This document shows positions 13,007 to 53,840 of a DNA stretch of 64,000 bases, piece after piece. Position numbers and translations under genes: made by a program. Each line of letters begins with the position of its first letter. Position 1 is the stretch's first letter. The DNA comes from Parcubacteria group bacterium Gr01-1014_3. GTDB taxonomy: Bacteria > Patescibacteriota > Minisyncoccia > UBA6257 > WO2-44-18. The stretch is from NCBI GenBank assembly GCA_007376445.1, contig VMGF01000002.1, forward strand, positions 167,928-231,927, given 5' to 3'. The notes below the pieces were generated by a model. It saw only the letters and a program-made list of their open reading frames with translations. It searched no databases and had not been told where the DNA came from.

Positions 13007-13106
13007 CCCGTTAGAACTGGCCAATACGGCTATTTCTAGGGAGGCATCGTAAAAAAAATACACATAAAATATGAAGATAATTAAAAATATCACCAGTTCT
13101 AACGGG
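13007..13106. repeat. CCCGTTAGA inverted-repeat element, copy 3 (CCCGTTAGAAC ... GTTCTAACGGG)
   Basis: 11-bp perfect terminal inverted repeat around an AT-rich interior that contains GGGAGG. The right end abuts the ATG at 13107. Confidence 0.65.
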
Positions 13107-14612
13107 ATGAAAAAACTCATCGTTTTCGGCCTTTTAATGGGCCTGATCGCAGTCAATTTAATACAAGTTAACGTCGTGGAAGCGGCCAGCGAGCCGTGGT
13201 GCTATTTCATCTTCCAGAAGTGCAATGACAACGATGATTCCAGCGCGCCTAGCTCCGCTCCGGCGACTAATAATCCTCCGGTTTGGACTAGTGGGCAGAC
13301 TTCTTATAGCGCCAAAACTGGCGAGCTTTTACAGTTCACGGTAAACGCCATGGATCCGGAAGGAGCCACGCTCATCTATCGGGCTTCTTTTATTCCAAAC
13401 AGCGCGAACTTTAACGAAAACACTCATGTCTTTTCTTGGACTCCAAGTGACAACCAGCTTGGTAATTATTCCATTGAATTCAGCGCTTATGACGGCACTA
13501 ACCGCATTTACCAGAACATTAACGTCCAGGTCATTAAGGGCGTTCAGAATCCGGGCAACAGCCGCCCAGTTTGGACCACGATTCCAAGTCAAACCGCTTA
13601 TGTCGGCCAGACTTTGCAATTCTCTGTCTATGCCAACGACAACGACGGCGACACTGTAAACTATTCCGCTTTGAATTTACCGAGCGGCTCTAACTTCCAA
13701 GAATCCAACCGGACTTTCACTTGGAATCCGAGCTCCGGCCAGGTTGGTTCTCACATCGTCAGCTTCCGCGCTTCTGATGGCACCAACTATGCCGATATGG
13801 GCGTGACTATCACTGTCATCAATGGCACTCCGGTCGTGGGAAATAATAAACCGGTTTTAACCGGCTTCAACCCGCCGATCCGCGCCAATGTCGGTAAGCT
13901 CTATATTTATGATGTTAATTCTACTGATCCAGATGGCGACCCGATCTTCTATATTTTGAATTCCGGTCCGGCCGGTCTGACGATGAATTCCGTCAACGGC
14001 GTTATCAGCTGGGTTCCGTCCGCGAATCAGTTGAACTTCAATCAGGTCAACTTCTCCGTCTCTGACGGCAAGACTCCGACTACTGTCAGCTTCTTCATCT
14101 TCGTGGAAGCCGCGACCGCTCCGGCTCCGGCTGAACCGATCATTGTTGAGCCAAGCGAAGCTCGCGTAGTTATCAGCGATTTGAGCATGCGCGCTGAGGA
14201 TGGCGTGGTCATTGTTTCTTGGAATACCAATATTCCGACCCGCGCTCGCGTGATCTTCGGTGATACTTCCGAAGCGACTAAGACCCGCAACTTTACCTAT
14301 GACGACGCGACTCCGGAAATTCTCGCTATGAGCCGGGACCATGAAGTGAAGCTTGAAGATTTGGAAATGGAAAAGGTTTATTACCTCCGCGCGGTCGCCA
14401 AGACCGACGGCCAGACCGTCACCAGCCGCGAAGTCACCTTTGTGCAACTTCCTGGCCAGGGTGGTCTCCAGTTCTTTGGAGCCGCTTCCCTCTTGTCCAC
14501 CTTGGGCAACTTGCTGACGGAACCGATCGTACTCTTACTCGCGATTGTCGGCATGTTGATCTTTATGTATCTCCAGAATAAGAAAATCGCGAAGCTGAAA
14601 TCACCGTTATAA
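13107..14612 (+). CDS. cell-surface protein with four Ig-like (He_PIG/cadherin-like) repeats and a C-terminal TM anchor
   Basis: Signal peptide MKKLIVFGLLMGLIAV. Four roughly 90-aa repeats (PVWT..G.T..F.V.A.D.DGD). C-terminal hydrophobic helix. An alternative start exists at 13071. Confidence 0.6.
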   Translation: MKKLIVFGLLMGLIAVNLIQVNVVEAASEPWCYFIFQKCNDNDDSSAPSSAPATNNPPVWTSGQTSYSAKTGELLQFTVNAMDPEGATLIYRASFIPNSANFNENTHVFSWTPSDNQLGNYSIEFSAYDGTNRIYQNINVQVIKGVQNPGNSRPVWTTIPSQTAYVGQTLQFSVYANDNDGDTVNYSALNLPSGSNFQESNRTFTWNPSSGQVGSHIVSFRASDGTNYADMGVTITVINGTPVVGNNKPVLTGFNPPIRANVGKLYIYDVNSTDPDGDPIFYILNSGPAGLTMNSVNGVISWVPSANQLNFNQVNFSVSDGKTPTTVSFFIFVEAATAPAPAEPIIVEPSEARVVISDLSMRAEDGVVIVSWNTNIPTRARVIFGDTSEATKTRNFTYDDATPEILAMSRDHEVKLEDLEMEKVYYLRAVAKTDGQTVTSREVTFVQLPGQGGLQFFGAASLLSTLGNLLTEPIVLLLAIVGMLIFMYLQNKKIAKLKSPL

Positions 14613-16837: not shown

Positions 16838-18874
16838 TTATTGCACCACCACTTTTCCACCAGCCTTAAAGACATTGCTCGCCGGCCACCAGGAGCCGAA
16901 CTCAAAAGATTCATCCGCTAAAAACTCTACCGTGCCGATCTGTCCGGGAGCTAAGCCTCCAGTTTTAAATTTGGAGCTACGCACTTCCAATCCAGCCGGA
17001 TAAACATTTTCTCTGCGGATGATGAAAGTAATTCTGACCTTGGCGCCGCGCGGCACGGTCAAAACTGACGACGGATAAAAACCGGCATCATCGGCCTCGA
17101 TCTTGAATTCACGGATAGACGGCTCGGTCGTGGAAGTAGGCTTAATAGGTTCAATTTCAAGCGGCATGATGATCGGATCGATAGTCGGAGCTGGCTTCGG
17201 AGTCGGCGCCATGACAGGAGTTTTAACGCCAAGGCACTCCTGATACGCCTTATTCAATGCTTCAGATTTTATCTGATAATCCTTCTCGCTGAGCAGATTG
17301 GAGATGACCAACTCTTTCAAACGGCGCATTTCGGACAGGATCTTTTCGCAGGCATCGGAGGTTCTCGGTTCTATGGTTTTTTGCTCAACCGCCGGCCGGA
17401 GAGCGCCTTCAATCATGCGGGCCAGATCCTGTAAAAAACCTTTGACGTGGCCGATGTGAAGATTGGCCCCAGCCAAATCTTTCTTCGCGAACGCGTCCCG
17501 GGCATACTGGAGGTGTTGCTTGGCCTGATCCAATAAGGCATAGGCTTTCGGATTATTTTCCTGGGTCATCTTGCGATCGATCAGGAGCATCTCGTATTTT
17601 TTAATCCGAAGATCAAATTCGGCAAATATCTTTTCAAGCTCACCGGTATCGGTGGTATTTTTTTCTCCCAGCAATCTGATCGCGTTTCTCGCTAAAACCT
17701 CAGCAGATCTAGCCTGCCCGAAAGCTTCCCCGGCTTTCCCGTTAGTCAGGGCAGAGCCAGCTTCGCGTAAATGCGCCTCGGCTTCTTTGAGTAGCGATGC
17801 CGCCACGCCAGTCGTGTCTTTACGTTCGGCAAGCAGTTTTTTAGCCTCTTCGATAACCTTGGCGGCCCGATCCATCTGCTCTTTTGCTCGTTGAGTGAGG
17901 TCTTCCTCACCTTTGATCAAAGCCTCATAGCTGGAGGATATTTTCCTGATCGCCTCGGAAACCCGGCGGTCAGCCTGCTCCCGAATTTCCTGTAAAATTA
18001 CCGAACGCCGGACATAGTCACCCGGCAAACCCTCAATAGCTTCGCCCACTCCTTCCACTCCATCTTTATCTAAAACATCATTCAGATCTTTTTCTAACTG
18101 CTCGCCGAGACCGTGGCGAAGTTTCTCAAATGCCTCGCGAACATCTTCAGAAGATTTCCTTTGGATGCGGTCGATGATCTCCAGAGACCGGATGTGCTTC
18201 AACTCTCCTCCCTCACCCTCCAAGAGAGCCTGCTCAAATTTTGCCACTAAATTAGAGGGATCTTCTTTGTCAGCCGCGGCGGCGATACCCTCTTCGATAT
18301 TGCCCTTAGCATCTTCGGCGATATCTTTGATCTCTTGCGAATCATCAAAACGGGTGATCAGTTCATCGAAAACTTTTTCATGCTGAATGGTCCGTTCGGC
18401 TAGTTTGGAAAGCAGTTTATCCACTTCCGGGTTTTTAGAAGTTTCACGCAGAGCTTCAAGTCGGGCCTTCAATCTCGCTTGCGCTGCCTGGTAATTTTCC
18501 ACGGCGTCTAAAATCGCCTCGTGATCATCCCCGCTCACCTCCTCTACCTTCTTAAGCTCGGCTAGTTTAGTGTTGGCGATATCTAGCTCAAGTGTGACGC
18601 GACTGGTTGGGTTGAAAGTAAAAACTCTCTGAATAGTCCGTCCCAGTTCCTTAAAAAAATAAAACGGGTTGGATGGCAAGATTCCCGGATTCTCCACGCC
18701 AAGTTCGGCGGCAGAAACCGATTCATCCGCGGAAATTGTTATTTCGACGGGCTCACCCGCCGCCGTTAAAACTCCGGCGGGCAAGCCCGCTTGGGCGAGG
18801 GCAAAGTTGGTAATACCAGCGCTGGATAAGGTCATTAAGCCAGCCGCGGTTAAACTGATAATGATTTTTTTCAT
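16838..18874 (-). CDS. secreted helical/coiled-coil protein with C-terminal cupredoxin-like beta domain
   Basis: Signal peptide, long helical region, Pro-rich linker, then about 90-aa beta-rich C-terminal domain. Confidence 0.4.
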   Translation of the reverse strand: MKKIIISLTAAGLMTLSSAGITNFALAQAGLPAGVLTAAGEPVEITISADESVSAAELGVENPGILPSNPFYFFKELGRTIQRVFTFNPTSRVTLELDIANTKLAELKKVEEVSGDDHEAILDAVENYQAAQARLKARLEALRETSKNPEVDKLLSKLAERTIQHEKVFDELITRFDDSQEIKDIAEDAKGNIEEGIAAAADKEDPSNLVAKFEQALLEGEGGELKHIRSLEIIDRIQRKSSEDVREAFEKLRHGLGEQLEKDLNDVLDKDGVEGVGEAIEGLPGDYVRRSVILQEIREQADRRVSEAIRKISSSYEALIKGEEDLTQRAKEQMDRAAKVIEEAKKLLAERKDTTGVAASLLKEAEAHLREAGSALTNGKAGEAFGQARSAEVLARNAIRLLGEKNTTDTGELEKIFAEFDLRIKKYEMLLIDRKMTQENNPKAYALLDQAKQHLQYARDAFAKKDLAGANLHIGHVKGFLQDLARMIEGALRPAVEQKTIEPRTSDACEKILSEMRRLKELVISNLLSEKDYQIKSEALNKAYQECLGVKTPVMAPTPKPAPTIDPIIMPLEIEPIKPTSTTEPSIREFKIEADDAGFYPSSVLTVPRGAKVRITFIIRRENVYPAGLEVRSSKFKTGGLAPGQIGTVEFLADESFEFGSWWPASNVFKAGGKVVVQ

Positions 18875-23449: not shown

Positions 23450-23547
23450 TAGTCTCTCCCCTTTCTCTAAAGAGAAAAATTGATTTGTAAAACTACTAAT
23501 TACAAATTATACAGGAGCGGTACAAAAAAGAACAATATTTTGGATTG

Positions 23548-23619
23548 TGCCGCGGGAGGGAATTGAACCCCCGACACGACGCTCTTCAGGCGTCTGCTCT
23601 ACCACTGAGCTACCGCGGC
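23548..23619 (-). tRNA. tRNA-Phe (GAA)
   Basis: GCCGCGG-TA-GCTC-AGTGGTA-GAGC ... GACGC-CUGAAGA-GCGUC ... TTCAATT T-loop. Cloverleaf folds. Confidence 0.85.
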
Positions 23620-23688
23620 AATAGGAACATTTTATCACATTCTTGAATTATATCAATTATAAAAAACTACCGCTTGGGTAGTTTTTAA

Positions 23689-24309
23689 TTATTTTATTAC
23701 ACGCTTTTTCTTATTTTCTTCCTGTTTACGTTCAAGGTCGGAATTCAAGAATACAAATTTATAATAATCTATTTCCAACCCGGCTTTTTCCAACTCATCG
23801 CTGATGTCCTGAAGGTTCTTCTCCAAAATTTTCTTGATCTCCGGGGTAATTTCAATCGCCTGATAAAAATTAAAATCGTATTCCGGAGCAAGGGCGGCGC
23901 CGATCTTATCAAGGCTCGCGCCGTAGAAATTATCGCACCGATTCACGCCACTGCACCGGTATCGCCCATCAGGCATTAGTGTAATGGCGGCGAGGTGCAT
24001 GATCCTATCAATGCCAGAAACATGGTGATCGGGGGTTTTCATATAGTCCACGTAATGCCCGAGCCATATTAGCCAAGCCCGCTGGCCTTTATTCATAGCC
24101 GCTACAACTTCTACAGAAGCTCCGTCTTCACAATCCCCTTTTCCCATGGAAAGAGTGTAGGGCACGCCTTGCCATTTATCTTCACCCTCCGGCTCGGCAA
24201 CATATTCGAATCTCGCGCCACTAACCGGTAGTCGGTAATCATCCCGGAAAATACTACACGCCAATAAAAATAAAAGCGGGGTAACAAAAAACGCGCGTTT
24301 TATATTCAT
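23689..24309 (-). CDS. transglutaminase-like cysteine peptidase lipoprotein
   Basis: Lipobox LLAC. KGDCEDGA (Cys), DHHVSG (His) and Asp spacing as in the BTLCP/transglutaminase-like core. Confidence 0.5.
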   Translation of the reverse strand: MNIKRAFFVTPLLFLLACSIFRDDYRLPVSGARFEYVAEPEGEDKWQGVPYTLSMGKGDCEDGASVEVVAAMNKGQRAWLIWLGHYVDYMKTPDHHVSGIDRIMHLAAITLMPDGRYRCSGVNRCDNFYGASLDKIGAALAPEYDFNFYQAIEITPEIKKILEKNLQDISDELEKAGLEIDYYKFVFLNSDLERKQEENKKKRVIK

Positions 24310-24360
24310 GCAAACCCTCTTCTTTCAAAAGACTTATTTAATTATACCAATTCACGGAAT

Positions 24361-26139
24361 CTAGCTCTCCTTTTTCTTCAAAGATTCTGCAATAGCTTTT
24401 TTAAGCGCTTCGATATCTACTGGTTTTTTTATCGAGCTCATTGGTTTTATATTTTTAGCCTCTTCATCAATCAGATCCGGCGGACGCGAAACTAGTTCTT
24501 TTAAGGACGCCTGCTTGGCCGGCGCTTGTGGGATATTTTCGAATTTTGGCTTGCCCGCCTCTGGCGCTGGCTTGAGTGGAATACGAGGACTTTCCTGGCG
24601 ATCAACCCTGGTCGCCTTTGGCGCCGCCATAGGCGGGTAAATTGGCGTTATGGGTATCTCGCGACGGATATCAACCCTACGAATTTCGGGCTTGCCCGCC
24701 ATGGCGGGCTTATTGCCATAGCTAGTTTGATTTTGATGACCAGGCGCTTCTCTACGAAAACCGTCCATATTGCCCATGCTGATCGGACGATCGGGGCGAT
24801 ATTCTGGACGTGGCCGCCGGATGTCACTACCCATTTGATCTCCTCCTGCGCCACCCTGTTGAAGAAACTCTCCGGCGATCTTTGCTGAAACCACGGCAAT
24901 TGGAGTGGCGTAGGTCTTACGGGTATACTCAATGATCTCCTGAGCATAGGAAGTTGGGGGTTTAGAAATCGGATCCATGGTTTTAGCGGAAAAAGGCCGC
25001 GAAGCCACGCCGTCGATCATCAACTTCACGTAAACGTTATATTTCGCCAGATTCAAAATATCGGTAGCCATAAAATCCGGTTCATATTCTTTTTCTAAAA
25101 ATTCCGCGTCCTCCGCGCCAACCCGGAAGGTTATTAGAGTGCCGACGTTACCGAAAACCGCGTCCCTCATCCTAGTATTCATATCGTGAACCAGCTGACG
25201 GATATATTGATGCGCCAGAATAAGCGAAAGGCGGTATTTTCTGGCCTCAGATAAAATATTCGCGAAAGAATCGGTGGCAAAATTCTGAAACTCGTCTACA
25301 TATAAGAAAAAGTCTTTGCGATCTTTTTCCGCTAAATCAACGCGAGACATAGCCGCTAATTGTAGTTTAGTGATGATCATGGCGCCAAGAAGGGCGGAGT
25401 TATCCTCGCCGATACGGCCCTTGGATAGGTTGAAAATCAGGATTTTCTGCTCATCCATAGCCCTCCGTAAATTCATGGCCGATTTTGGCTGACCAAGAAT
25501 GTTGCGGACGGTTGGATTAGCGACCAGCTGACCGATCTTATTTTGAATAGCGGCAGTCGCTTCGGTCTCGAATTTTTGCGCGTAACGCGCGTACTCATTA
25601 ACCCAAAAACCTTTAATGACCGGGTCTTTCAGCTGGTCAACGATCCTGGCGCGGTATTCCTTGTCGGAGAAGATCCTTAACACACCAAGAATAGTAGAAT
25701 CGCTGAACTCAAGAAGCGCCAAGAGGGCGTTATTCAAAATGTATTCCATGCGAGCGGACCAGACATCCGGCCAGATCTTTTTGAAGACGCCCATGATACT
25801 GGACGCGATCAGCGGGCGCATCTCGTTGGTAACCTGCTCTAATGGATTAAAGGCGATCGGAAAATCGCTGTCGGATGGATTGAAATAGATAACGTCCTTG
25901 ATGCGCTCTTTTGGAACATAATCCAACATCTTTTCCGCGAAATCTCCGTGCGGATCCACCACGCCAACGCCGTGACCGTTCATGATGTCAGAAATAACCA
26001 TGTTCTCCAGCATGGTGGTTTTACCCATTCCGGTCTTACCGATGATGTACATGTGGCGGCGGCGGTCATCTACTTTAATGCCGAATTTTTTATTCGCCCC
26101 GCGGAAATTGGTTTGTCCAAATAATGTAATTTTATCCAT
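24361..26139 (-). CDS. TraG/VirD4-like (T4CP-like) P-loop ATPase with long disordered Pro/Arg-rich C-terminal tail
   Basis: Walker A IIGKTGMGKTT; Walker B FFLYVDEFQNF; ILAHQ motif. No TM segment. About 160-aa low-complexity tail. Confidence 0.5.
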   Translation of the reverse strand: MDKITLFGQTNFRGANKKFGIKVDDRRRHMYIIGKTGMGKTTMLENMVISDIMNGHGVGVVDPHGDFAEKMLDYVPKERIKDVIYFNPSDSDFPIAFNPLEQVTNEMRPLIASSIMGVFKKIWPDVWSARMEYILNNALLALLEFSDSTILGVLRIFSDKEYRARIVDQLKDPVIKGFWVNEYARYAQKFETEATAAIQNKIGQLVANPTVRNILGQPKSAMNLRRAMDEQKILIFNLSKGRIGEDNSALLGAMIITKLQLAAMSRVDLAEKDRKDFFLYVDEFQNFATDSFANILSEARKYRLSLILAHQYIRQLVHDMNTRMRDAVFGNVGTLITFRVGAEDAEFLEKEYEPDFMATDILNLAKYNVYVKLMIDGVASRPFSAKTMDPISKPPTSYAQEIIEYTRKTYATPIAVVSAKIAGEFLQQGGAGGDQMGSDIRRPRPEYRPDRPISMGNMDGFRREAPGHQNQTSYGNKPAMAGKPEIRRVDIRREIPITPIYPPMAAPKATRVDRQESPRIPLKPAPEAGKPKFENIPQAPAKQASLKELVSRPPDLIDEEAKNIKPMSSIKKPVDIEALKKAIAESLKKKES

Positions 26140-26160
26140 ATAGTTTATTAACCGTTGCCA

Positions 26161-27417
26161 TTATTCTACCGGTAATTCGGCCGGTGGCTCGCCTTTCTTG
26201 GTGCCTAAGCGACGCAACAGCGGAGCTTCAACAACGATACTCGGGAAGTGATAAAGCGTGGCTAATTCTTCGATATTTAAGATGCCTACCTTACGTGGCC
26301 AGTACCGGCGCCGATAAGCTTCAAAAAGTTGGCGTTTCTTTAAGAAAACTACTTGTTTTTTAAACAATCCTCGTCCGATGGTGATAGTGTTTGTGTTCGG
26401 CCGGAGACCGTTGATGTGTTGCCCGGTAAACTGGTGGAAGGTAGACATAATAGCCGCGATGTTGCCGCGGGTAAAACTTTTTCGCTTATCGATATAAAGA
26501 AACCGGACATTGGATTCAAAAGCGATCTTACTAAGCTTAGTCTCGACAGCCTCCACGACATCTTTCTCGCCGGGAGTCAGAGCCAGCATCCTAGTTTCTT
26601 TTTCTGGCTTCATCGCCTCCGGCCATTCCGGAGGTTTGACAGGAGCATTGAATAAATTTTTCGCGAAGGTAATGATGCCATCAACGAATCCCGCCGGAGC
26701 CGGCGGAGCTTTCCGTCCGATCAGTTTATCACGGATCACCTCGCCTTTCTTTTTCCATTCCGGGCCGGTCGGCCGGATCAAAATTTGAATCCAAACCGCC
26801 TCGTCGCTTTTCAAGCGAGACATAGCCTCAGCAACCGTGGCGATCGGATCCAACCGCTTTTCCGGAACACTTTCCTCAAAATATTCATGAGTGCGGATCG
26901 GATAGGCGTCTTCTCTTATCAAATGATAGTCAGTGCCCCAGATATCATAAACTTTGTTCGGCAAGGTGGCCGGCATCATGTCCATGTAGTCACTGGTGGC
27001 CAAACTGATCTCCGCGTCCGGATATTGGGCGTAAATAGCTGATTCGATCAAATTCCGATGGCCTTCAATACAACGAATATAAAAATGGATGCCGCTGGAA
27101 TGGCCGACTAACTCAAAGGACATAAAATCCTCTTTTATTTTTCCGTCCCAATATTTTTCAGTAAAACGAAGACCGAAGGAATACATACCATAGCAAGCGG
27201 CAAAAACCTGCTCCATCGCCTTTGGAGTTTTCTCAATTCCCTGCGGGATCTTCGCTTCTAATAGAACCCATTTTTGGCTACGAAGATAGTTGACGTATAC
27301 ATAATAGATCCAAAACTCCCAGGCAACGAAAATTAGCGCCAAGGGCAATAAAATCCACCAAGTGGCGCTTAAAACTATAAGAATACTATTTAAAATTCCT
27401 TGAAGAACTTCTATCAT
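26161..27417 (-). CDS. membrane-anchored protein of unknown function (partner of the ATPase)
   Basis: N-terminal TM hairpin followed by about 370-aa soluble domain. Stop is 22 nt before the ATPase start. Confidence 0.45.
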   Translation of the reverse strand: MIEVLQGILNSILIVLSATWWILLPLALIFVAWEFWIYYVYVNYLRSQKWVLLEAKIPQGIEKTPKAMEQVFAACYGMYSFGLRFTEKYWDGKIKEDFMSFELVGHSSGIHFYIRCIEGHRNLIESAIYAQYPDAEISLATSDYMDMMPATLPNKVYDIWGTDYHLIREDAYPIRTHEYFEESVPEKRLDPIATVAEAMSRLKSDEAVWIQILIRPTGPEWKKKGEVIRDKLIGRKAPPAPAGFVDGIITFAKNLFNAPVKPPEWPEAMKPEKETRMLALTPGEKDVVEAVETKLSKIAFESNVRFLYIDKRKSFTRGNIAAIMSTFHQFTGQHINGLRPNTNTITIGRGLFKKQVVFLKKRQLFEAYRRRYWPRKVGILNIEELATLYHFPSIVVEAPLLRRLGTKKGEPPAELPVE

Positions 27418-27507
27418 GAGTAATCGCTGAAGTGTCAGCTAATCATATTTCCGCGGATAAGTTTATTATACCACGGCCCAACTCTGACACTATAAGCAAT
27501 TCCTCGA

Positions 27508-28536
27508 TTAAACTAGGGTCGTATAACGGCCGTCCTCTAACCTCTTAAAGTGCTTCTTATTCTGGAGGTTGATGAGAATGGTGTTTTCCTTGAACAAACG
27601 ATCCTTCAAGACATGTCCCATGACTTCTTTCGGCTTAAGCGGACCGTGCTGTTTGATGAAGTGAGCGATGATCTCGCGGGCGGTGCCCGGAACGATACCG
27701 AACTCTTTCAAGCTATAAGTGCCTTTGCCAACCAAAACGAATTTGTCGTCCTTGATCAGTTCGTTGTGGATAGTTGGAGCGTGAACCGGAGTAGCCTTCA
27801 ACTCGCTGACTTTCTTAGCTAATTCATTGAAGTGCATCGGGCGCTGTTCTTTCTTCAAAACCAAGTAGGCCCAATCGCGGGCAGTCTTCGGATTGATCTC
27901 AGCGGCGGCGGACGGACCGACTTCGCCATAACGGTTAACCGCTACATGCTTAGAGATCGCCGCGTAACCCATCGCTACCGAGTCAGTTAAATTAGCCGCC
28001 TTGGCGGTAGAAGCAAAAACGGCGTTATATTCGCCTTTCTTAGAATTCCAGCCATTCAAAACCTTAGATACGAAACCTAAAGCTTTCTTCTGATCATCGG
28101 AACCAATGTGCCAATGAGCTCGGTGGTCATCGGTTTCTTTAGCGAACTTGAATGAACCGCAAACTTCCAGCAGGAATTTTACTTTATTAGAAAGAAGGGC
28201 AACCGGTTCTTTATCCGTGGCCAGAGAAACTAAATCGCCGGAAAGGAAATCCTCTCGGCGGCAATTACCCGCATTTTTTAAATTAGCCGAAACTGCGGAG
28301 ACAAAAGACGCCAAATCAACTGAAGCGGCTTTTGCCTTAACGGTTTTCAAAGCCAATGCCTCGATCTGACGGATACGCTCACGAGTCAAATTATATTTAG
28401 TGCCTAGTTCAGCGAGGGTTTTGGAGTCCGCGCTAGTTAGACCATAACGACCTTCTAAAACCTCTTTGTGGCGGACCGGAAGACCGACGAGAATCGCCTT
28501 TACGAATTGATTGATTTTATAATTCGGGCTGGACAT
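27508..28536 (-). CDS. DNA-binding protein with N-terminal sigma-70 region-4-like HTH and C-terminal HARE-HTH
   Basis: TLAELGTKYNLTRERIRQIEALAL (region 4.2-like); C-terminal MHFNELAKKV...FVLVGKGTYSLKEFG (HARE-HTH-like). Confidence 0.45.
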   Translation of the reverse strand: MSSPNYKINQFVKAILVGLPVRHKEVLEGRYGLTSADSKTLAELGTKYNLTRERIRQIEALALKTVKAKAASVDLASFVSAVSANLKNAGNCRREDFLSGDLVSLATDKEPVALLSNKVKFLLEVCGSFKFAKETDDHRAHWHIGSDDQKKALGFVSKVLNGWNSKKGEYNAVFASTAKAANLTDSVAMGYAAISKHVAVNRYGEVGPSAAAEINPKTARDWAYLVLKKEQRPMHFNELAKKVSELKATPVHAPTIHNELIKDDKFVLVGKGTYSLKEFGIVPGTAREIIAHFIKQHGPLKPKEVMGHVLKDRLFKENTILINLQNKKHFKRLEDGRYTTLV

Positions 28537-28622
28537 GTGTTTATATTTATATTGGTTTTACTCGGAAATTCTAACACATTTCAAAATATAGGTCAATAGG
28601 CTAACTGGCTGGTCAAAAACCC

Positions 28623-29543
28623 CTAAATTCTCTTGTTTTTTTGCCATAAAGTGAGAAGAGGGCTGGCAATAAAAATTGAAGAGTAAGTGCCGAAAACCGT
28701 ACCCACCAGTATCACCAAAATGAAATACTTAAGAGCCGCCGGACCGAGGAAAAATAGGGCTAAAAGCGTCAAAACTAGGGTCAGGGAGGTGTTGATCGAT
28801 CGGGCCATAGTTTCATTGACGCTCCGGTTAACTAGATTGTTAAAATCCTCGGAGGAACTACCAGATTTACCGGCAAACGAGATCCGTAAGTTTTCCCGGA
28901 TACGATCAAAGACCACGATCGTGTCGTGCACCGAAAAACCCATCACTACCAGGACCGCCACGATGAAATTAGTATCAACTTCGACGTTCAAGAAATAACC
29001 CAGCACCGCGAACATGCCCGCCGGGATCAGCGCGTCGTGGAACAGCGTCAAAAGAGTGATGATGCCATACTTCCAAGAACTCACCGGCTTCGAAACCTTG
29101 CGGAACGCGAATGCCACATAAAGAGAGATGCCGAGCAAGACTAAGCCAAAGGCGATCAGGGCTTTTTGACGGAGATCATTACCTACCGTCGGTCCGATGT
29201 TCTGAAACTGCATCTCCTCTACCTTTCCAAATTTCTTTTGCAGACCCTGGAGCGCAATCCCTTTTTGCTGTTCGGTGATATCTTTGGCGCGGATCAAAAA
29301 ACTTTGCCCATCCCCTCCCTGCGGCAAAACTATCGCGTCCGGAACATTGAACTGATTTATCAAAGACTCAACAAGCTCTTCTTTTACCACTGTATTTTCA
29401 CTGAATTTCAGTTCCCAGGCCACGCCACCGGCAAAATCAATTCCTGGCTTTAAACCAAAGAAAAGAATCGCCGCGATGCTTAGGGCGGTCATGGCGCCGG
29501 AGAAACCAAGGTAGATATATTTTTTGCCGATTACGTTCATCAT
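28623..29543 (-). CDS. secF: protein translocase subunit SecF
   Basis: Six TM helices; SecD/SecF family motifs; immediately downstream of secD. Confidence 0.85.
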   Translation of the reverse strand: MMNVIGKKYIYLGFSGAMTALSIAAILFFGLKPGIDFAGGVAWELKFSENTVVKEELVESLINQFNVPDAIVLPQGGDGQSFLIRAKDITEQQKGIALQGLQKKFGKVEEMQFQNIGPTVGNDLRQKALIAFGLVLLGISLYVAFAFRKVSKPVSSWKYGIITLLTLFHDALIPAGMFAVLGYFLNVEVDTNFIVAVLVVMGFSVHDTIVVFDRIRENLRISFAGKSGSSSEDFNNLVNRSVNETMARSINTSLTLVLTLLALFFLGPAALKYFILVILVGTVFGTYSSIFIASPLLTLWQKNKRI

Positions 29544-29544
29544 T

Positions 29545-30771
29545 TTATTTAGTAAGACTTCTTAAGATCGCGCGAGTGACCGTGATCGCGCTAAACATGC
29601 TCATCAACACACCCACCAATAAAGCCAGGGCAAAACCGCGGACGAAGCTTGAGGTGAAGTAATACAAGATTACCGAAGTGATAATAGTAGAAATATTGGA
29701 ATCACGGATCGAAGTCCAGGCTCGCTTGAAGCCCTCCTCTAAAGCGGCAGAAAACGGCGCGCCTTTTTTCACTTCCTCTTTAGTCCGAGCGAATACCAAA
29801 ATGTTGGCGTCCACGGCCATACCTATAGATAGGATGAAGCCGGCAATGCCCGAAAGGGTCATGGTGATGCCAACAAGCTTGAAGACCGCGAGTGTCAGTA
29901 TAATGTAAATCACTAAAGCCAGCGCGGAAAAGAGGCCGAGGCGACGGTAATAAAGGATCATAAATAGGATGATAGCGAGGGTGCCGATCATTCCAGCAAA
30001 GAGCGCTTTATTTAAAGAATCCAGGCCCAAAGAAGGACCGATGGTCTGCTGGCTGATGACTTTAACCGGCGCCGGCAAGGCTCCGGCATTCAGTAAGCTG
30101 ACAAGCTGCTGAGCTTCTTTGAAGGTGAACTGGCCGGAGATTTGCGCTTCGCCGCCAGCGATCTTTTCCTGAACGACCGGAATTGAAATAATATTACCGT
30201 CGAGTAAGATACCGATTGGCTTTCCGACTGAGCGGATGGTCATTTCTTCAAATAATCTTGATCCTTCTTTATCAAAGGAGATGGCGATCTGCGGCAGGCC
30301 GGTTTGCGGATTAGTGACCACCTGCGCGGTCTTGAGGTAACGTCCAGTCAACTTGGTTGGGAGAAACTCTACTTCACCTTCTTTAGCGGTAGACTTTACT
30401 TCACGGAACTCCAGCTGGGCCGTGCGGCCGATCTGATTGATGGCGGCCTGTACGTCTTTGATACCGGCAAGCTCCACCGTGATCTGATATGAATCGCCCT
30501 GTTTGGCCGTGGTCACGCGCGGTTCGCTGACGCCGAATACATTCACGCGCTTCTCCAACACATCGCGTAGACCATTCATGACCGAACTCCGGTCAGCCGC
30601 CGCCACAGAAGACATATCCACTTCATATACTAAGTAAGTGCCACCCACTAGATCCAAGCCGAGATTCCACGGCAAAACTTTCGAGCCAAGTCCTTTCGGA
30701 TAAATGAAAAATCCGGCCAGAACGGTCAGTACCAAAACAAAAAATAAAATCAGTTGAGCCTTTGATCGCAT
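29545..30771 (-). CDS. secD: protein translocase subunit SecD
   Basis: Periplasmic domain plus six-TM C-terminal domain. Adjacent to secF. Confidence 0.85.
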   Translation of the reverse strand: MRSKAQLILFFVLVLTVLAGFFIYPKGLGSKVLPWNLGLDLVGGTYLVYEVDMSSVAAADRSSVMNGLRDVLEKRVNVFGVSEPRVTTAKQGDSYQITVELAGIKDVQAAINQIGRTAQLEFREVKSTAKEGEVEFLPTKLTGRYLKTAQVVTNPQTGLPQIAISFDKEGSRLFEEMTIRSVGKPIGILLDGNIISIPVVQEKIAGGEAQISGQFTFKEAQQLVSLLNAGALPAPVKVISQQTIGPSLGLDSLNKALFAGMIGTLAIILFMILYYRRLGLFSALALVIYIILTLAVFKLVGITMTLSGIAGFILSIGMAVDANILVFARTKEEVKKGAPFSAALEEGFKRAWTSIRDSNISTIITSVILYYFTSSFVRGFALALLVGVLMSMFSAITVTRAILRSLTK

Positions 30772-31000: not shown

Positions 31001-31037
31001 ATCAAAAACTGGCCTTAGGCCAGTTTTTGATTTGGTG
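31001..31037. terminator. perfect palindrome CAAATCAAAAACTGGCC-tta-GGCCAGTTTTTGATTTG (bidirectional terminator 3' of tRNA-Lys)
   Basis: 17-bp perfect stem with T/A runs. Confidence 0.65.
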
Positions 31038-31106
31038 CCCCCACATGGAATCGAACCATGGTCAACTGCTTAAAAGGCAGCTGCTCTACCATTGAGCTAT
31101 GGAGGC
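31033..31106 (-). tRNA. tRNA-Lys (UUU)
   Basis: GCCUCCA-UA-GCUC-AAUGGUA-GAGC ... CUGCC-UUUUAAG-GCAG ... GGTTCGATTCC. CCA encoded. Confidence 0.8.
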
Positions 31107-32694: not shown

Positions 32695-33621
32695 TTATAA
32701 ACTTATTACGTATTTCTCGACGCTTTGGGTTTGTATTTTGAAAAATCCTAGATTAAAAAGCGCCTGATAAAGCAGCCAGCCCAGGCCAAGCGCCAGCCAG
32801 TTCACGAAGATCAGTAGGAATTTTATCAACAAAAAGATTAGGAATCCGCCGAAGACCAGAAAAACCGTCCGTAGAATTGGCGGAAGATTAGATAGACGGC
32901 CGAGAGTTAAGTCGTAGAGAATGTCCGTGATCGTGTCGGCCGGACGGATCTTGAGTCCGGTAAAATTACCGATCACTTCCGCGACACGCTGGGCCGCTTC
33001 CTGCACAATCAACTGACGCGCGCCGGGAGCGATACTGTCGGCTTCTTTGGGTAAAAGCTTTAAAGAAATATCGGTCAGAGAATTTTCAATAGAAAACTTC
33101 GGAATATAAGCCGAGGCGATAGGCTCGAGCGGACGGATTGCGATACCGATATGCTGCTTAGCCGCGGCGGGGTCTTCAAAATCCAAGATCGAAATAAAGG
33201 CCACGATCACGAAAATCGCGATGGCGGATGAAGCTCCCCTCAGAATCACCTGGCCGGTTTTGAAAAAACGGATCTCGAGATTATTTTTAACCTCCAGCCG
33301 TCCGTTATAGTAAGCGCTGATCAATAAAGCGATCGCGATAAGAATAGCCGCGAACATCACCAAGGAAAGCGAACCGCCGAGAAAAATGGTCATCGCCGCG
33401 ACCTGCGCCACGATCATGCCAGCGCTGATCAAAAAATTGTCCACTAAAAGGACCTGAATAACGAAAGCTGAAAGAAATAAAACGGAGGCGATGAACGTCC
33501 AAAATGCCGAGGAGAAACTGCCGATGCTTAATAAATTACCCGCGGCATAGCTGAAAATAAGGGCGAAGAAAGCCACTACCCCACCCAGAGAAATGATTTT
33601 TGTGATTACAGGTCGATTCAT
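32695..33621 (-). CDS. polytopic membrane protein of unknown function embedded in the dnaK operon
   Basis: About 7 TM helices; no conserved motif recognised. Confidence 0.45.
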   Translation of the reverse strand: MNRPVITKIISLGGVVAFFALIFSYAAGNLLSIGSFSSAFWTFIASVLFLSAFVIQVLLVDNFLISAGMIVAQVAAMTIFLGGSLSLVMFAAILIAIALLISAYYNGRLEVKNNLEIRFFKTGQVILRGASSAIAIFVIVAFISILDFEDPAAAKQHIGIAIRPLEPIASAYIPKFSIENSLTDISLKLLPKEADSIAPGARQLIVQEAAQRVAEVIGNFTGLKIRPADTITDILYDLTLGRLSNLPPILRTVFLVFGGFLIFLLIKFLLIFVNWLALGLGWLLYQALFNLGFFKIQTQSVEKYVISL

Positions 33622-52838: not shown

Positions 52839-53840
52839 TTAAACTTTATCCGAACGGGGCGGAACTGCCAAATACGACATCAGCCATCCTACAATACCGG
52901 CGATCACGATCGAGCCCGTCCAAAGATGAATCGACATCCAGGTACCCTCGGTCAACATAACTATCAAGAAAAATCCTTTGTAAAATATCGCCGGCGCCAA
53001 AAACGCGGTCAGGCGGAACCGCCGGACCGACCAAGGCCAGTGTGTGGAAATCGAGTAAATAATATCCATCACTAATCCGGAAACAATCGCGCCAATCACG
53101 AAATAATAAAAGTCATGCATAAAACTCAAACCGAACGCGGGAAGCGAAAAAAGTATCGTGAAACTGCCGAACGGCAACCTAATCTTTTTCAGTAAAATCA
53201 ACAAACCTCCCATCAAAATCCCGGTTTGAATGAGAAGGCTTCCCACGCTCAACGCTTCACTATAAAAAATCCGCGCGGTTTTCTGGCTCAGAAGCGGCCA
53301 GGGCCGGGAAGACAAGCTCACATATTGAGTCATAAAAGCTATCACCGACATTAAAACGGCAAGGGCAATGACCGCCAAAATTTTATGACTCACGTTAGCT
53401 TTTTCCCGGCTGTACCAGAGCGCGCGGATCGGCGCGGTCACTATGAACCCAAGCCCGATCGCAAGAAGAAGATGTGTCGGACTCAAAAGCGCGTCCACAT
53501 TCGATTCAATACCGAAAATAAGGTGCCAGGCCATATCCAGCGCGCCACCGAGGCCAAAAATTATCACTCCGACTATCGATAATACATATTCCTTAGGCAC
53601 GGACCTTAGCCAGGAATACCCTCGCCTCCTTCCAATGATCGCGTAGATGAGCAAGGCAATGCCGAGCAAACCAAACCCTCCATAGAAGATCGCGTGCCAG
53701 GGCGTAAAGAAAGTTTCCAGCGCGGAATCCAAATGATTATGCGCCCAGCCATCTACATAAAGACCGCCGACAAAGATTGCCGAAAAAATAACGAATACAA
53801 TATCAAAAAATAAATTTGGTTTGGGGTATTTAACCGGCAT
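52839..53840 (-). CDS. polytopic membrane protein of unknown function
   Basis: About 9 TM helices. Confidence 0.4.
   Translation of the reverse strand: MPVKYPKPNLFFDIVFVIFSAIFVGGLYVDGWAHNHLDSALETFFTPWHAIFYGGFGLLGIALLIYAIIGRRRGYSWLRSVPKEYVLSIVGVIIFGLGGALDMAWHLIFGIESNVDALLSPTHLLLAIGLGFIVTAPIRALWYSREKANVSHKILAVIALAVLMSVIAFMTQYVSLSSRPWPLLSQKTARIFYSEALSVGSLLIQTGILMGGLLILLKKIRLPFGSFTILFSLPAFGLSFMHDFYYFVIGAIVSGLVMDIIYSISTHWPWSVRRFRLTAFLAPAIFYKGFFLIVMLTEGTWMSIHLWTGSIVIAGIVGWLMSYLAVPPRSDKV

What the first reader, a model, noticed from the sequence alone, without database searches (positions are those of the whole stretch)
23689..28536. Four-gene minus-strand operon: sigma-r4/HARE-HTH DNA-binding protein, membrane protein, soluble T4CP-like ATPase with disordered tail, and transglutaminase-like lipoprotein
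The ATPase (24361-26139) has Walker A GKTGMGKTT, Walker B YVDEFQNF and an ILAHQ motif reminiscent of TraG/VirD4/TrwB coupling proteins. It lacks their N-terminal TM anchor, which may be supplied by the separately encoded upstream membrane protein (26161-27417; 22-nt gap). It also ends in an extraordinary roughly 160-aa Pro/Arg/Glu-rich low-complexity tail. Upstream is a protein combining a sigma-70 region-4-like HTH with a C-terminal HARE-HTH. Downstream is a Cys-His-Asp transglutaminase-like lipoprotein. Together this could be a compact DNA- or protein-translocation or surface-remodelling module not matching a described system.
Basis: inference. Interest (0 to 1): 0.55.

Follow-up and report, generated by a model that had tools for sequence, protein, structure and literature searches.

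The report
Split coupling-protein-like ATPase module in Patescibacteria
Three of the four genes form a module conserved across many Patescibacteria: a DNA-pump-like ATPase of the conjugation "coupling protein" type, a separately encoded membrane anchor, and a DNA- or RNA-polymerase-binding protein, sitting among housekeeping genes with no secretion system nearby; the fourth gene, a lipoprotein, is a bystander.

Summary
The four minus-strand ORFs, the Walker A/B and ILAHQ motifs, the disordered tail and the sigma-r4 and HARE-HTH domains are real. The conserved unit, however, is three genes.

In species-representative Patescibacteria loci:
- The sigma-r4/HARE-HTH gene sits directly upstream of the membrane protein (Pfam DUF8128) in 73/75 testable loci.
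- The ATPase sits directly downstream in 72/76.
- SecDF lies further upstream in 41/63.
- The lipoprotein is next to the module in 0/80. It has four homologues in 5.8 billion proteins, and one of them lies elsewhere in its genome.

The ATPase has the TrwB/VirD4 fold but no transmembrane segment. DUF8128 supplies the missing N-terminal part. Bacillus phages encode the two as one polypeptide (phrog_5156; phage G gp156). The DUF8128 model's only significant solved-structure matches are TrwK/VirB4, presumably its N-terminal domain.

The ATPase tail is a variable disordered linker, usually ending in a conserved helix. DUF8128 ends in a conserved PPxxLP peptide.

Published work counted "orphan" coupling-protein homologues in 96% of Patescibacteria genomes, mostly far from virB4, and left their function open. 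I found no description of the anchor or the sigma-r4/HARE partner.

Architecture is well supported. Function (DNA or nucleoprotein handling at the membrane) is inferred.

The parts
28568..28596 (-). Promoter-like site (TTGACC, 17 nt, TAGAAT, with TG) in the SecF / sigma-r4 gene gap
   Evidence: Consensus scan and the sequence itself. Consensus match only; the count of such sites in the region is no higher than in shuffles.
27508..28536 (-). Sigma-r4/HARE-HTH protein (342 aa), a conserved partner of the module
   Evidence: Pfam Sigma70_r4 and HARE-HTH. Directly upstream of DUF8128 in 73/75 testable loci; the reverse test gives 14/16.
28336..28491 (-). Sigma-70 region 4 domain (residues 16-67). 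The recognition helix TRERIRQIE (residues 51-59, 28360-28386) is invariant at seven of its nine positions and nearly so at one more.
   Evidence: Pfam E 3.7e-11. Family profile against PDB: SigA/RpoD region 4, E about 1e-19. Invariant T51 R52 E53 R54 R56 Q57 I58 in 31 homologues.
27700..27879 (-). HARE-HTH winged-helix domain (residues 220-279), followed by a second conserved C-terminal region up to residue 342
   Evidence: Pfam PF05066, E 6.8e-6, 26.8 bits against a cut-off of 25.9. Strongly conserved block in alignment A5.
26161..27417 (-). DUF8128 (PF26449) membrane protein (418 aa), the predicted anchor and N-terminal module of the ATPase
   Evidence: Precomputed PF26449. 3,278 clusters at 50% identity with E<=1e-3. 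AF2 model pLDDT 85.4. Top 14 PDB Foldseek hits are all TrwK/VirB4. Homologous to the N-terminal third of phage G gp156.
27280..27396 (-). Hydrophobic N-terminal helix (residues 8-46; conserved WW..P), the predicted membrane anchor
   Evidence: Kyte-Doolittle windows. AF2 helix 2-47. W20, W21 and P25 conserved.
26164..26223 (-). Conserved but disordered C-terminal peptide of DUF8128 (residues 399-418; ..KKGEPPAELPVE), a likely docking motif
   Evidence: pLDDT below 50, yet P411, P412, L415 and P416 are invariant. Motif present in 56/80 homologues. Duplicated at the end of longer variants.
24361..26139 (-). T4CP-like (TrwB/VirD4-fold) P-loop ATPase (592 aa) with no transmembrane segment
   Evidence: Pfam and NCBIfam. 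Foldseek TrwB E 1e-11. No hydrophobic window. 59-81% identity across 76 species loci, the best-conserved gene of the block.
26014..26040 (-). Walker A, GKTGMGKTT (residues 34-42)
   Evidence: Sequence. G34, K35, T36, G37, G39 and K40 invariant.
25279..25302 (-). Walker B, YVDEFQNF (residues 280-287)
   Evidence: Sequence. V281 through F287 invariant.
25453..25818 (-). All-alpha insertion in the nucleotide-binding domain (residues 108-229), in the position of the T4CP all-alpha domain
   Evidence: AF2 secondary structure is all helices; pLDDT 52-69. The Foldseek alignment to TrwBdeltaN70 spans about 420 columns.
24418..24858 (-). Disordered Pro/Lys/Ala/Arg/Glu-rich linker (residues 428-574)
   Evidence: pLDDT below 50. 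Composition. In homologues the tail varies from 3 to 254 aa, median 106.
24373..24414 (-). Conserved C-terminal amphipathic helix (residues 576-589; VDIEALKKAIAESLKK)
   Evidence: AF2 helix, pLDDT 65-77. A related motif sits at the end of 41/71 homologous tails.
23689..24309 (-). Lineage-specific lipoprotein (206 aa). Probably co-transcribed here, but not part of the conserved module.
   Evidence: Only 4 homologues. 0/80 related loci. Homologue P0123 lies between CorA and GrpE. No family match.
23662..23686 (.). Palindromic terminator-like hairpin just after the lipoprotein stop codon
   Evidence: Consensus match only.
28623..30771 (-). SecD (29545-30771) and SecF (28623-29543), frequent upstream neighbours of the module
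   Evidence: Adjacent in 41/63 testable loci, including divergent lineages.

Best explanation
The functional unit is three genes: sigma-r4/HARE-HTH, DUF8128 and the ATPase.

Shown:
- The ATPase is a catalytically intact TrwB/VirD4-fold P-loop NTPase without a membrane anchor.
- DUF8128 is its obligate genomic neighbour. It corresponds to the N-terminal part of single-chain phage homologues.
- DUF8128 consists of a hydrophobic N-terminal helix followed by a soluble alpha/beta domain whose only significant solved-structure matches are VirB4 (TrwK).
- The sigma-r4/HARE-HTH gene is bound to DUF8128 even more tightly than the ATPase gene is.
- The block lies among housekeeping genes (SecDF, DnaJ/DnaK, ribonucleotide reductase, EF-P, NusA). 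No T4SS gene or relaxase was found among the window ORFs scanned, or among the called genes of the four related loci with Pfam listings.

Inferred:
- DUF8128 anchors the ATPase at the cytoplasmic face of the membrane. By analogy with TrwB, FtsK and HerA, the ATPase would form a hexameric ring. DUF8128 would then play the role that the N-terminal transmembrane segments play in a canonical T4CP and that VirB3 plus the VirB4 N-terminal domain play for VirB4.
- The conserved C-terminal PPxxLP peptide of DUF8128, and the ATPase's disordered linker with its terminal helix, are docking elements.
- The sigma-r4/HARE-HTH protein has a recognition helix identical to that of primary sigma factors. It would bring -35-like DNA, or RNA polymerase, to the motor, much as TraM is tethered by the TraD tail or as the gamma domain guides FtsK.
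- The module would then be a housekeeping, T4SS-independent translocase or remodeller of DNA or nucleoprotein at the membrane.

The direction and purpose of transport (segregation, uptake or export) are not determined. The lipoprotein is an unrelated, recently inserted neighbour.
For: - Domains and fold.
- No transmembrane segment in the ATPase; one in DUF8128.
- Rosetta-stone fusion: phrog_5156 matches DUF8128 (profile positions 50-314, E 2e-15) and the ATPase (387-804, E 4e-62). hhalign of DUF8128 against gp156 residues 15-319 gives probability 96.8%. Foldseek against gp156 gives E 2e-16.
- VirB4 resemblance (N-terminal domain inferred): the top 14 PDB hits are all TrwK, E 1e-5 to 2e-3. Phage G gp155 is VirB4-like by sequence and matches DUF8128 by structure (E 1.7e-6).
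- Synteny.
- The ATPase is the most conserved gene of the block: median 66% identity against 56% for SecD.
- Motifs in the tails.
- Invariant sigma region 4.2 helix.
- Housekeeping context with no T4SS genes found.
- Essentially absent from viral contigs.
- Literature (PMC12102498): T4CP homologues in 2,918 of 3,035 Patescibacteria genomes, only 148 of 5,713 near virB4. The authors say exaptation cannot be ruled out.
Against: - No experiment bears on this family.
- The VirB4 resemblance is fold-level only, with query-normalised TM 0.31-0.40. Foldseek ranges were not shown, so its assignment to the N-terminal domain is inferred. No sequence-profile signal was seen to pGO1 TrsD or TrsE, or to PDB chains.
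- Physical contacts (DUF8128 with the ATPase, the tail with sigma-r4/HARE-HTH) are not tested.
- Conserved synteny in small, syntenic CPR genomes can partly reflect inheritance rather than function.
- In some lineages the ATPase gene is not next to DUF8128 (L032, L039, L040, L085, L100, L103, L116).
- The sigma-r4/HARE-HTH protein could be merely a transcription factor.
- The substrate could be protein rather than DNA; T4CPs also deliver proteins.
- I could not verify that the published T4CP counts refer to this exact subfamily.
Confidence: 0.5

Rival explanations
1. It is the ordinary coupling protein of the Patescibacteria type IV secretion system, which is encoded elsewhere (near oriC). It has simply been split into an anchor and a motor, and it delivers that system's substrates.
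For: - TrwB and DotL are the best fold and sequence matches.
- T4CP genes are sometimes far from virB4, and the Southlakia T4SS is reported to include a VirD4-like component (PMC12102498; PMC12857230).
- In phage G the fused homologue gp156 sits next to a VirB4-like gene, gp155.
Against: - Only 148 of 5,713 Patescibacteria T4CP homologues lie near virB4.
- T4CP homologues are in more genomes (2,918) than VirB4 (2,417).
- Relaxases are nearly absent (109).
- The Southlakia t4cp was not essential although the T4SS genes were.
- No T4SS genes were found among the window ORFs scanned or in the related loci whose genes were listed.
- The constant partner is a sigma-r4/HARE-HTH protein, which is not a known T4SS component.
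Confidence: 0.2
2. It is a protein-handling ATPase functionally linked to SecDF (secretion or membrane-protein biogenesis), and the sigma-r4/HARE-HTH protein is only the transcriptional regulator of the cluster.
For: - SecD-SecF lie directly upstream in 41/63 testable loci, including deep lineages.
- Other neighbours are DnaJ/DnaK, trigger factor and EF-P.
- T4CPs can translocate proteins, and long disordered tails recruit adaptors in DotL. This last point is from my own knowledge.
Against: - SecDF is missing upstream in about a third of loci while the triad stays intact.
- A promoter-like site separates SecF from the triad.
- The nearest characterised relatives (TrwB, HerA, FtsK clade) are nucleic-acid motors.
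- The tightest link is to a DNA- or RNA-polymerase-binding protein.
Confidence: 0.12
3. It is an anti-phage defence module related to MADS (mad8-like ATPase) or to HerA- and DndH-type systems.
For: PADLOC mad8 E 8.8e-20, with weaker HerA and DndH hits. The DndH C-domain appears among the fold hits.
Against: - No other mad, dnd or nuclease genes are adjacent.
- The location is fixed and among housekeeping genes.
- The ATPase shows very high sequence conservation.
- The family is near-universal rather than patchy.
Confidence: 0.03
4. It is a remnant of an integrated conjugative element or prophage.
For: Homologues occur in Bacillus phages and on a Pontibacillus megaplasmid near a conjugal pilin-like gene.
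Against: - GC content and skew are unremarkable.
- No integrase, relaxase or other element genes are present.
- The same chromosomal context recurs in hundreds of species.
- Only one fragment was found in 2.9 million viral contigs.
Confidence: 0.03
5. One reading: the lipoprotein works with the ATPase in surface remodelling.
For: The four genes are co-directional, with a 51-nt gap between the ATPase and the lipoprotein gene, and promoter- and terminator-like sites bracket all four.
Against: - The lipoprotein is absent from 80/80 related loci.
- It has four homologues in total.
- One of them is encoded elsewhere in its genome.
- It matches no enzyme family.
Confidence: 0.02

Closest known systems
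Type IV coupling proteins (VirD4 / TrwB / TraD / DotL)
   Same: - The nucleotide-binding domain has the same fold, with an all-alpha insertion.
- These are the best sequence and structure matches: Pfam TrwB_AAD_bind at 54.7 bits, and TrwB by Foldseek at E 1e-11 with target-normalised TM about 0.60.
- A long C-terminal tail ending in a conserved element recalls the TraD tail that binds TraM and the DotL tail that binds adaptors. The comparison of tails is from my own knowledge.
   Different: - There are no N-terminal transmembrane helices in the ATPase chain. A separate 418-aa protein with a VirB4-like soluble domain takes that place.
- No T4SS or relaxase genes were found nearby.
- The context is housekeeping and chromosomal.
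- The constant partner is a sigma-r4/HARE-HTH protein.
- Scores fall far below the NCBIfam equivalog cut-offs (51.6 against 250; 53.8 against 366).
VirB4 (TrwK), with VirB3 and VirB3-VirB4 fusions
   Same: - DUF8128 (an N-terminal membrane helix plus a soluble domain) has TrwK as its only significant PDB fold matches.
- The order 'membrane helix, VirB4-like soluble domain, ATPase domain' mirrors VirB3-VirB4.
   Different: - The resemblance is at fold level only, with query-normalised TM 0.31-0.40 and no sequence-profile signal; that it lies in the VirB4 N-terminal domain is inferred.
- The ATPase domain is closer to VirD4 than to VirB4.
- The two parts are separate genes.
- No VirB6, VirB8 or pilin genes are adjacent.
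phrog_5156 proteins of Bacillus phages (phage G gp156, SPO1 gp27.4, CP-51, JL)
   Same: They are true homologues of both DUF8128 and the ATPase, joined in one chain (E 2e-15 and 4e-62). Their function is also unknown.
   Different: - They are fused and phage-borne.
- gp156 aligns from its residue 15, so it appears to lack the hydrophobic N-terminal helix.
- Identity is only 21-26%.
- There is no sigma-r4/HARE-HTH neighbour. In phage G the neighbour is a VirB4-like protein.
FtsK / SpoIIIE
   Same: The parts list is comparable: a membrane anchor, a long Pro-rich disordered linker, a ring ATPase of the same superfamily, and a winged-helix DNA reader. The function is housekeeping.
   Different: - The parts are spread over three proteins and arranged in a different order.
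- Pfam FtsK_SpoIIIE scores below its cut-off (15.1 against 24).
- There is no gamma domain.
- This is an analogy, not family membership.
'Orphan' T4CP homologues of Patescibacteria (Quinonero-Coronel et al. 2025, PMC12102498)
   Same: This is probably the same set of ATPases: VirD4-type hits in 2,918 of 3,035 genomes, mostly far from virB4, with exaptation suggested.
   Different: In the passages I retrieved by term search, that study does not describe the DUF8128 partner, the fusion evidence, the VirB4-like fold, the sigma-r4/HARE-HTH partner or the SecDF synteny. I could not check its hit list against this subfamily.

Membership tests
Type IV coupling protein (VirD4/TrwB/TraG/TraD) | FtsK/HerA-superfamily P-loop nucleotide-binding domain of the VirD4 type, with intact Walker A and B | tested here: met
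   TrwB_AAD_bind 54.7 bits (cut-off 20.5), T4SS-DNA_transf 32.2 (20.1), TraG-D_C 31.8 (22). TrwB is the top Foldseek hit at E 1e-11. Motifs are invariant.
Type IV coupling protein (VirD4/TrwB/TraG/TraD) | All-alpha domain inserted in the nucleotide-binding domain | tested here: inconclusive
   The AF2 model shows an all-helical insertion at residues 108-229, but at pLDDT 52-69. The alignment to TrwBdeltaN70 covers about 420 columns. No domain-level superposition was possible.
Type IV coupling protein (VirD4/TrwB/TraG/TraD) | N-terminal transmembrane anchor in the same polypeptide | tested here: not met
   No 19-residue window reaches Kyte-Doolittle 1.6 anywhere in the 592 aa.
Type IV coupling protein (VirD4/TrwB/TraG/TraD) | Genetic association with a T4SS (VirB4 and others) and/or a relaxase | tested here: not met
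   None among the 24 window ORFs scanned, nor among the called genes of the four related loci with Pfam listings (L001, L003, L004, L010). Genome-wide absence could not be tested.
Type IV coupling protein (VirD4/TrwB/TraG/TraD) | Reaches the curated NCBIfam cut-off of a T4CP family | tested here: not met
   SXT_TraD 53.8 against 366; conju_CD1115 51.6 against 250.
VirB4 | VirB4 N-terminal domain (CagE_TrbE_VirB) joined to the ATPase domain in one chain; TIGR00929 | tested here: not met
   TIGR00929 18 bits against 643. No CagE_TrbE_VirB hit on DUF8128. Only fold-level similarity of DUF8128 to TrwK.
DUF8128 (PF26449) | Match to the Pfam model | tested here: met
   PF26449 is precomputed for the identical protein P0001 and for all 120 listed homologues. 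The local Pfam copy returned no match.
FtsK/SpoIIIE | FtsK_SpoIIIE motor domain above threshold, plus a gamma winged-helix domain | tested here: not met
   PF01580 15.1 bits against a cut-off of 24, covering the P-loop only. No gamma domain.
HerA | HerA central domain with an N-terminal HAS barrel and a NurA partner | tested here: not met
   DUF87 36.6 bits, above its cut-off of 23.2, and HerA is among the fold hits at E 2e-10. HerA_C scores 12.1 against 22, and no NurA-like neighbour is present.
Sigma-70 family sigma factor | Region 2 (binds the -10 element and the core enzyme) together with region 4 | tested here: not met
   Only region 4 is found. All RpoD and RpoS models match their last 60-80 positions only.
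RNA polymerase delta subunit (RpoE) | N-terminal HARE-HTH followed by an acidic tail; TIGR04567 | tested here: not met
   TIGR04567 30.9 bits against a cut-off of 42. The HARE-HTH is internal and no acidic tail is present.
Transglutaminase-like / BTLCP cysteine peptidase (lipoprotein) | Profile match and a Cys-His-Asp triad in the right order | tested here: inconclusive
   No Pfam, NCBIfam or PDB hit, even at E up to 10. An invariant GDCED motif plus conserved His and Asp residues exist. No structure model was made.
MADS defence system (mad8) | mad8-like ATPase together with the other mad genes | tested here: not met
   The mad8 model hits at E 8.8e-20, but the neighbours are SecDF, EF-P, MnmA and similar.

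The most novel reading that the evidence does not exclude
Patescibacteria carry a near-universal, T4SS-independent membrane machine. In it, a coupling-protein-type ring ATPase is held by a VirB3/VirB4-N-domain-like anchor. A protein built from sigma-factor region 4 and a HARE winged helix then guides the motor to promoter-like (-35) DNA, or to RNA polymerase. This would be either a functional counterpart of FtsK or a new route for moving DNA or nucleoprotein across or along the membrane in these minimal cells. It could also be an evolutionary intermediate between VirB4 and VirD4.
Probability: 0.15. Interest if true: 0.8.

Novelty: new variant of a known kind. Interest (0 to 1): 0.55.

Why it matters
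Patescibacteria make up a large share of bacterial diversity, have tiny genomes, and keep few genes without need. A published survey found coupling-protein homologues in 96% of their genomes, mostly unlinked to any type IV secretion system, and left their role open.

This locus gives that orphan ATPase a concrete architecture:
- a separately encoded anchor, DUF8128, so far a domain of unknown function;
- a conserved DNA- or RNA-polymerase-binding partner;
- candidate docking peptides.

That turns 'possible exaptation' into testable hypotheses about interactions, DNA binding and gene essentiality. The combination of a VirB4-like N-terminal module with a VirD4-like motor also bears on how the two T4SS ATPases diverged.

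Tried and rejected
Searches and comparisons that led nowhere:
- Profile searches of DUF8128 against PDB sequences gave nothing meaningful.
- hhalign of DUF8128 against pGO1 TrsD and against the N-terminal part of TrsE (VirB4) gave no signal. Homology to VirB4 or TrsD at sequence level is unproven.
- hhalign of the ATPase against pGO1 TrsK (VirD4-like) and TrsE (VirB4-like) was not discriminating.
- tblastn of DUF8128 against phage genomes found nothing at E 1e-3. The link to phage proteins needed profiles and structure.
It was redone with database proteins.
- Literature searches for DUF8128, PF26449, gp27.4 and phrog_5156 found nothing. The Aravind and Iyer HARE-HTH paper is not held.

Ideas tested and rejected:
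- The sigma-like gene near the Pontibacillus DUF8128 homologue is not a relative of the sigma-r4/HARE-HTH protein.
- NusA and trigger factor as general downstream neighbours: they occur only in L032 and L039.
- The lipoprotein as a module member or as a transglutaminase.
- Defence-system and mobile-element readings.

Limited result:
- The metagenome scan with the sigma-r4/HARE-HTH profile was largely consumed by ordinary sigma factors. Only 18 full-length relatives were usable.

Full report
**Observation**

The window is a chromosomal piece of 'Parcubacteria group bacterium Gr01-1014_3'. The 418-aa protein is 100% identical to a protein of that organism, G01um10143_634.

They lie in a long co-directional array: tRNA-Lys, SecD, SecF, the four genes, tRNA-Phe, then a 753-aa ORF that I did not scan and read as a ribonucleotide reductase from its sequence.

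A sigma-70-type promoter-like site (28596-28568) lies in the 86-nt gap between SecF and the first gene. A palindromic terminator-like hairpin (23686-23662) follows the fourth gene. In this genome the four genes are therefore plausibly one transcript. Such consensus matches are no more frequent in this region than in shuffled sequence.

GC content and skew are unremarkable.

**The ATPase (26139-24361)**

- Pfam places it above threshold in TrwB_AAD_bind, DUF87, T4SS-DNA_transf and TraG-D_C.
- The best NCBIfam hits are VirD4/TraD-type models, all far below their equivalog cut-offs.
- The only PDB sequence hits are TrwB and DotL.
- An AlphaFold2 model built with 31 homologues has a confident nucleotide-binding domain (pLDDT 80-95). 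It also has a less confident all-helical insertion (residues 108-229), a disordered stretch (428-574) and a terminal helix (576-589).
- Foldseek ranks TrwB first (E 1e-11, target-normalised TM about 0.60) and DotL next. HerA, Cag-beta, the DndH C-domain and the VirB4 C-terminal domain follow within one to three orders of magnitude.
- Walker A, Walker B and the AHQ motif are invariant.
- No hydrophobic segment exists.
- NCBI already names close relatives 'type IV secretion system DNA-binding domain-containing protein'.

**The membrane protein (27417-26161)**

It belongs to Pfam DUF8128 (PF26449). A full HMMER pass over 1.84 billion cluster representatives found 3,278 clusters at E<=1e-3 and 1,059 at E<=1e-30. 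The best 150 are 277-551 aa long, so the separate, unfused form is the rule among close relatives.

Its AlphaFold2 model is good (pLDDT 85.4, pTM 0.80). It shows a long hydrophobic N-terminal helix (residues 2-47; conserved WW..P), an alpha/beta domain, and a low-confidence tail (399-418). That tail is nevertheless among the best conserved parts of the protein, reading ..KKGEPPxxLPxE. In longer variants the PPxxLP peptide occurs a second time, at the end of a charged extension, which is how a short docking motif behaves.

Basic residues follow the hydrophobic helix, so the soluble domain is predicted to be cytoplasmic. This is an inference.

**Link between the two proteins**

Three independent lines tie DUF8128 to the ATPase.

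1. Adjacency. The ATPase gene follows DUF8128 in 72 of 76 testable species-representative loci, with a median 25-nt gap.
2. Fusion. The phage family phrog_5156 (824 profile positions) matches DUF8128 over positions 50-314 (E 2e-15) and the ATPase over 387-804 (E 4e-62).
   - Phage G gp156 (825 aa) aligns to DUF8128 over its residues 15-319 (hhalign probability 96.8%). It is also the top structural match (E 2e-16, TM 0.53).
   - Its C-terminal half aligns to the ATPase (26% identity, E 5e-29).
3. A degraded pair outside the phylum. A DUF8128-like gene on a Pontibacillus megaplasmid is followed by ATPase-like pieces in several reading frames.

**What the DUF8128 domain resembles**

All 14 best PDB matches are TrwK/VirB4 of the R388 secretion system (E 1e-5 to 2e-3, probability 0.97-1.0). 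Query-normalised TM is only 0.31-0.40 and rmsd is 9-12 A. DUF8128 has no P-loop, so the match is presumably to the VirB4 N-terminal domain. The output did not show the aligned ranges.

Among viral models, phage G gp155 also matches (E 1.7e-6). gp155 is VirB4-like by sequence (conju_CD1110, E 3e-51).

No sequence-profile link to VirB4 or to pGO1 TrsD could be shown. I therefore call this a fold-level resemblance, not membership.

The overall layout is: membrane helix, VirB4-like soluble domain, VirD4-like motor with an all-alpha insertion, disordered tail. That is a hybrid of the two T4SS ATPase architectures.

**The sigma-r4/HARE-HTH protein (28536-27508)**

- Region 4 is of the primary-sigma type. 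The family profile hits SigA/RpoD region 4 at about E 1e-19 and nothing else in the PDB.
- The recognition helix TRERIRQIE is invariant at seven of its nine positions, and nearly so at one more, in 31 homologues. From memory it is identical to E. coli sigma-70 residues 583-591, which contact the -35 hexamer.
- There is no region 2, so it is not a sigma factor.
- The HARE-HTH hit is marginal in single sequences (26.8 bits against 25.9). It sits in a strongly conserved C-terminal half that looks like two winged-helix-like units.
- The gene is directly upstream of DUF8128 in 73 of 75 testable loci.
- In the reverse test I started from 18 full-length relatives found in metagenomes. DUF8128 follows in 14 of the 16 loci that have enough downstream sequence.
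- The pair stays together even where the ATPase gene is not adjacent (L032, L039, L100, L103, L116).

**The tail of the ATPase**

In 71 homologues the tail is 3-254 aa long (median 106) and rich in E, K, P and R. In 41 of the 71 it ends in a helix of the type KxVNIxELRxALxESLxK. Some lineages carry a Cys-rich zinc-ribbon-like insert.

A variable linker plus a conserved terminal element is the pattern of a tether for a partner. TraD with TraM and DotL with its adaptors are precedents, which I cite from memory. Which partner it binds is untested.

**The lipoprotein (24309-23689)**

- The signal peptide and lipobox cysteine are conserved.
- Only four homologues exist among 5.8 billion proteins.
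- None of the 80 related loci has it.
- The 69%-identical homologue lies between CorA and GrpE.
- No enzyme family matches, even at permissive thresholds.

It is a lineage-specific gene that happens to be inserted between the ATPase gene and tRNA-Phe in this genome.

**Context**

SecD-SecF lie directly upstream in 41 of 63 testable loci. This holds in lineages where the ATPase is only 40-59% identical to the window's.

Other neighbours are housekeeping genes: DnaJ, DnaK, EF-P, MnmA, NusA, trigger factor, CysRS, DnaB and LigA. No VirB4, VirB6, relaxase, integrase or defence genes were seen.

The ATPase is the most conserved gene of the block, with median 66% identity against 56% for SecD. The Patescibacteria form is essentially absent from 2.9 million viral contigs.

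**Literature**

Quinonero-Coronel et al. 2025 (PMC12102498) report the following.
- 5,713 VirD4-type T4CP homologues in 2,918 of 3,035 Patescibacteria genomes, with only 148 near virB4.
- VirB4 in 2,417 genomes.
- 109 relaxases in total.
- The t4cp of Southlakia was not essential although the T4SS genes were.
- Exaptation 'cannot be ruled out'.

A 2025 review repeats the T4SS picture (PMC12857230). I found nothing on DUF8128, its link to the ATPase, or the sigma-r4/HARE-HTH partner. That this window's ATPase belongs to the published set is my inference from the shared Pfam families.

**Interpretation**

The architecture is well supported: a three-gene housekeeping module in which DUF8128 anchors and completes a T4CP-like motor.

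The function is inferred. By analogy with the superfamily, the module would be a membrane-bound ring NTPase acting on DNA or nucleoprotein. The sigma-r4/HARE-HTH protein would act as a sequence- or polymerase-directed adaptor, tethered through the disordered tails.

The main rival is that this is simply the coupling protein of the distal T4SS. A protein-handling role linked to SecDF is less likely. Defence and mobile-element readings are disfavoured.

I rate it a new variant of a known kind, of moderate interest.

Noticed in passing
window 23547-23619 (-) and 31033-31106 (-): tRNA-Phe (GAA) lies in the 239-nt gap between the lipoprotein gene and the 753-aa downstream ORF (read as a ribonucleotide reductase), preceded by its own promoter-like site (23656-23629). 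tRNA-Lys (TTT) lies upstream of SecD.
   Followed up: partly
L003 12467-13293 (Candidatus Harrisonbacteria, JACROC010000005.1): A bAvd gene and a reverse transcriptase (RVT_1), the hallmarks of a diversity-generating retroelement, lie about 3.5 kb downstream of the ATPase gene.
   Followed up: no
L032 4190-9208 and L039 8367-11538: In two lineages DUF8128 is followed by NusA and trigger factor, then IF-2 or ClpP, instead of the ATPase. The ATPase is not within 7 kb.
   Followed up: partly
L006 7992-11930 (Pontibacillus sp. ALD_SL1 megaplasmid NZ_CP062975.1): A DUF8128-like gene (22% identity) is followed by ATPase-like pieces in at least five separate frames or segments, which looks like a decayed or interrupted copy. 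A Mbov_0395-family conjugal pilin-like gene is about 7 kb away.
   Followed up: partly
L007 2223-6365 (Bacillus phage G gp155-gp156): The jumbo phage G encodes an adjacent VirB4-like ATPase (gp155; conju_CD1110 E 3e-51) and a VirD4-like ATPase with a DUF8128-like N-terminal domain (gp156). In SPO1 the homologue gp27.4 sits next to a gene annotated as 'replication initiation by nicking' and near a partition gene. What a T4SS-like ATPase pair does in a phage is unknown.
   Followed up: partly
L038 ATPase tail; L094 6864-8873: Some ATPase tails carry a Cys-rich zinc-ribbon-like insert (CAICGK...CYCKEH; weak Pfam zf_Tbcl_2), so the tail can acquire folded modules.
   Followed up: no
P0383, P0367, P0322, P0311 (DUF8128 variants of 516-551 aa): The C-terminal PPxxLP peptide occurs twice, separated by a charged, disordered extension of about 100 aa.
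   Followed up: partly
window 7877-9781 (-), 52839-53840 (-), 54345-55679 (-), 32695-33621 (-): Large ORFs of 634, 333, 444 and 308 aa have no Pfam match at E<=1e-5. The 308-aa ORF, between DnaK and DnaJ, looks like a multi-pass membrane protein.
   Followed up: no
window 13071-14612 (+) and 16838-18874 (-): One protein has a He_PIG/Big_9 Ig-like domain and another (678 aa) has DUF5667. Both are probably cell-surface proteins.
   Followed up: no
L001, L004, L010-L011 (about 3.5-4.2 kb downstream of the ATPase gene): ComEC (DUF4131 plus Competence domains) recurs a few genes downstream of the module in several Paceibacteria lineages (ATPase, EF-P, MnmA, ..., ComEC). It was not among the window ORFs scanned. 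The link may be plain synteny.
   Followed up: no
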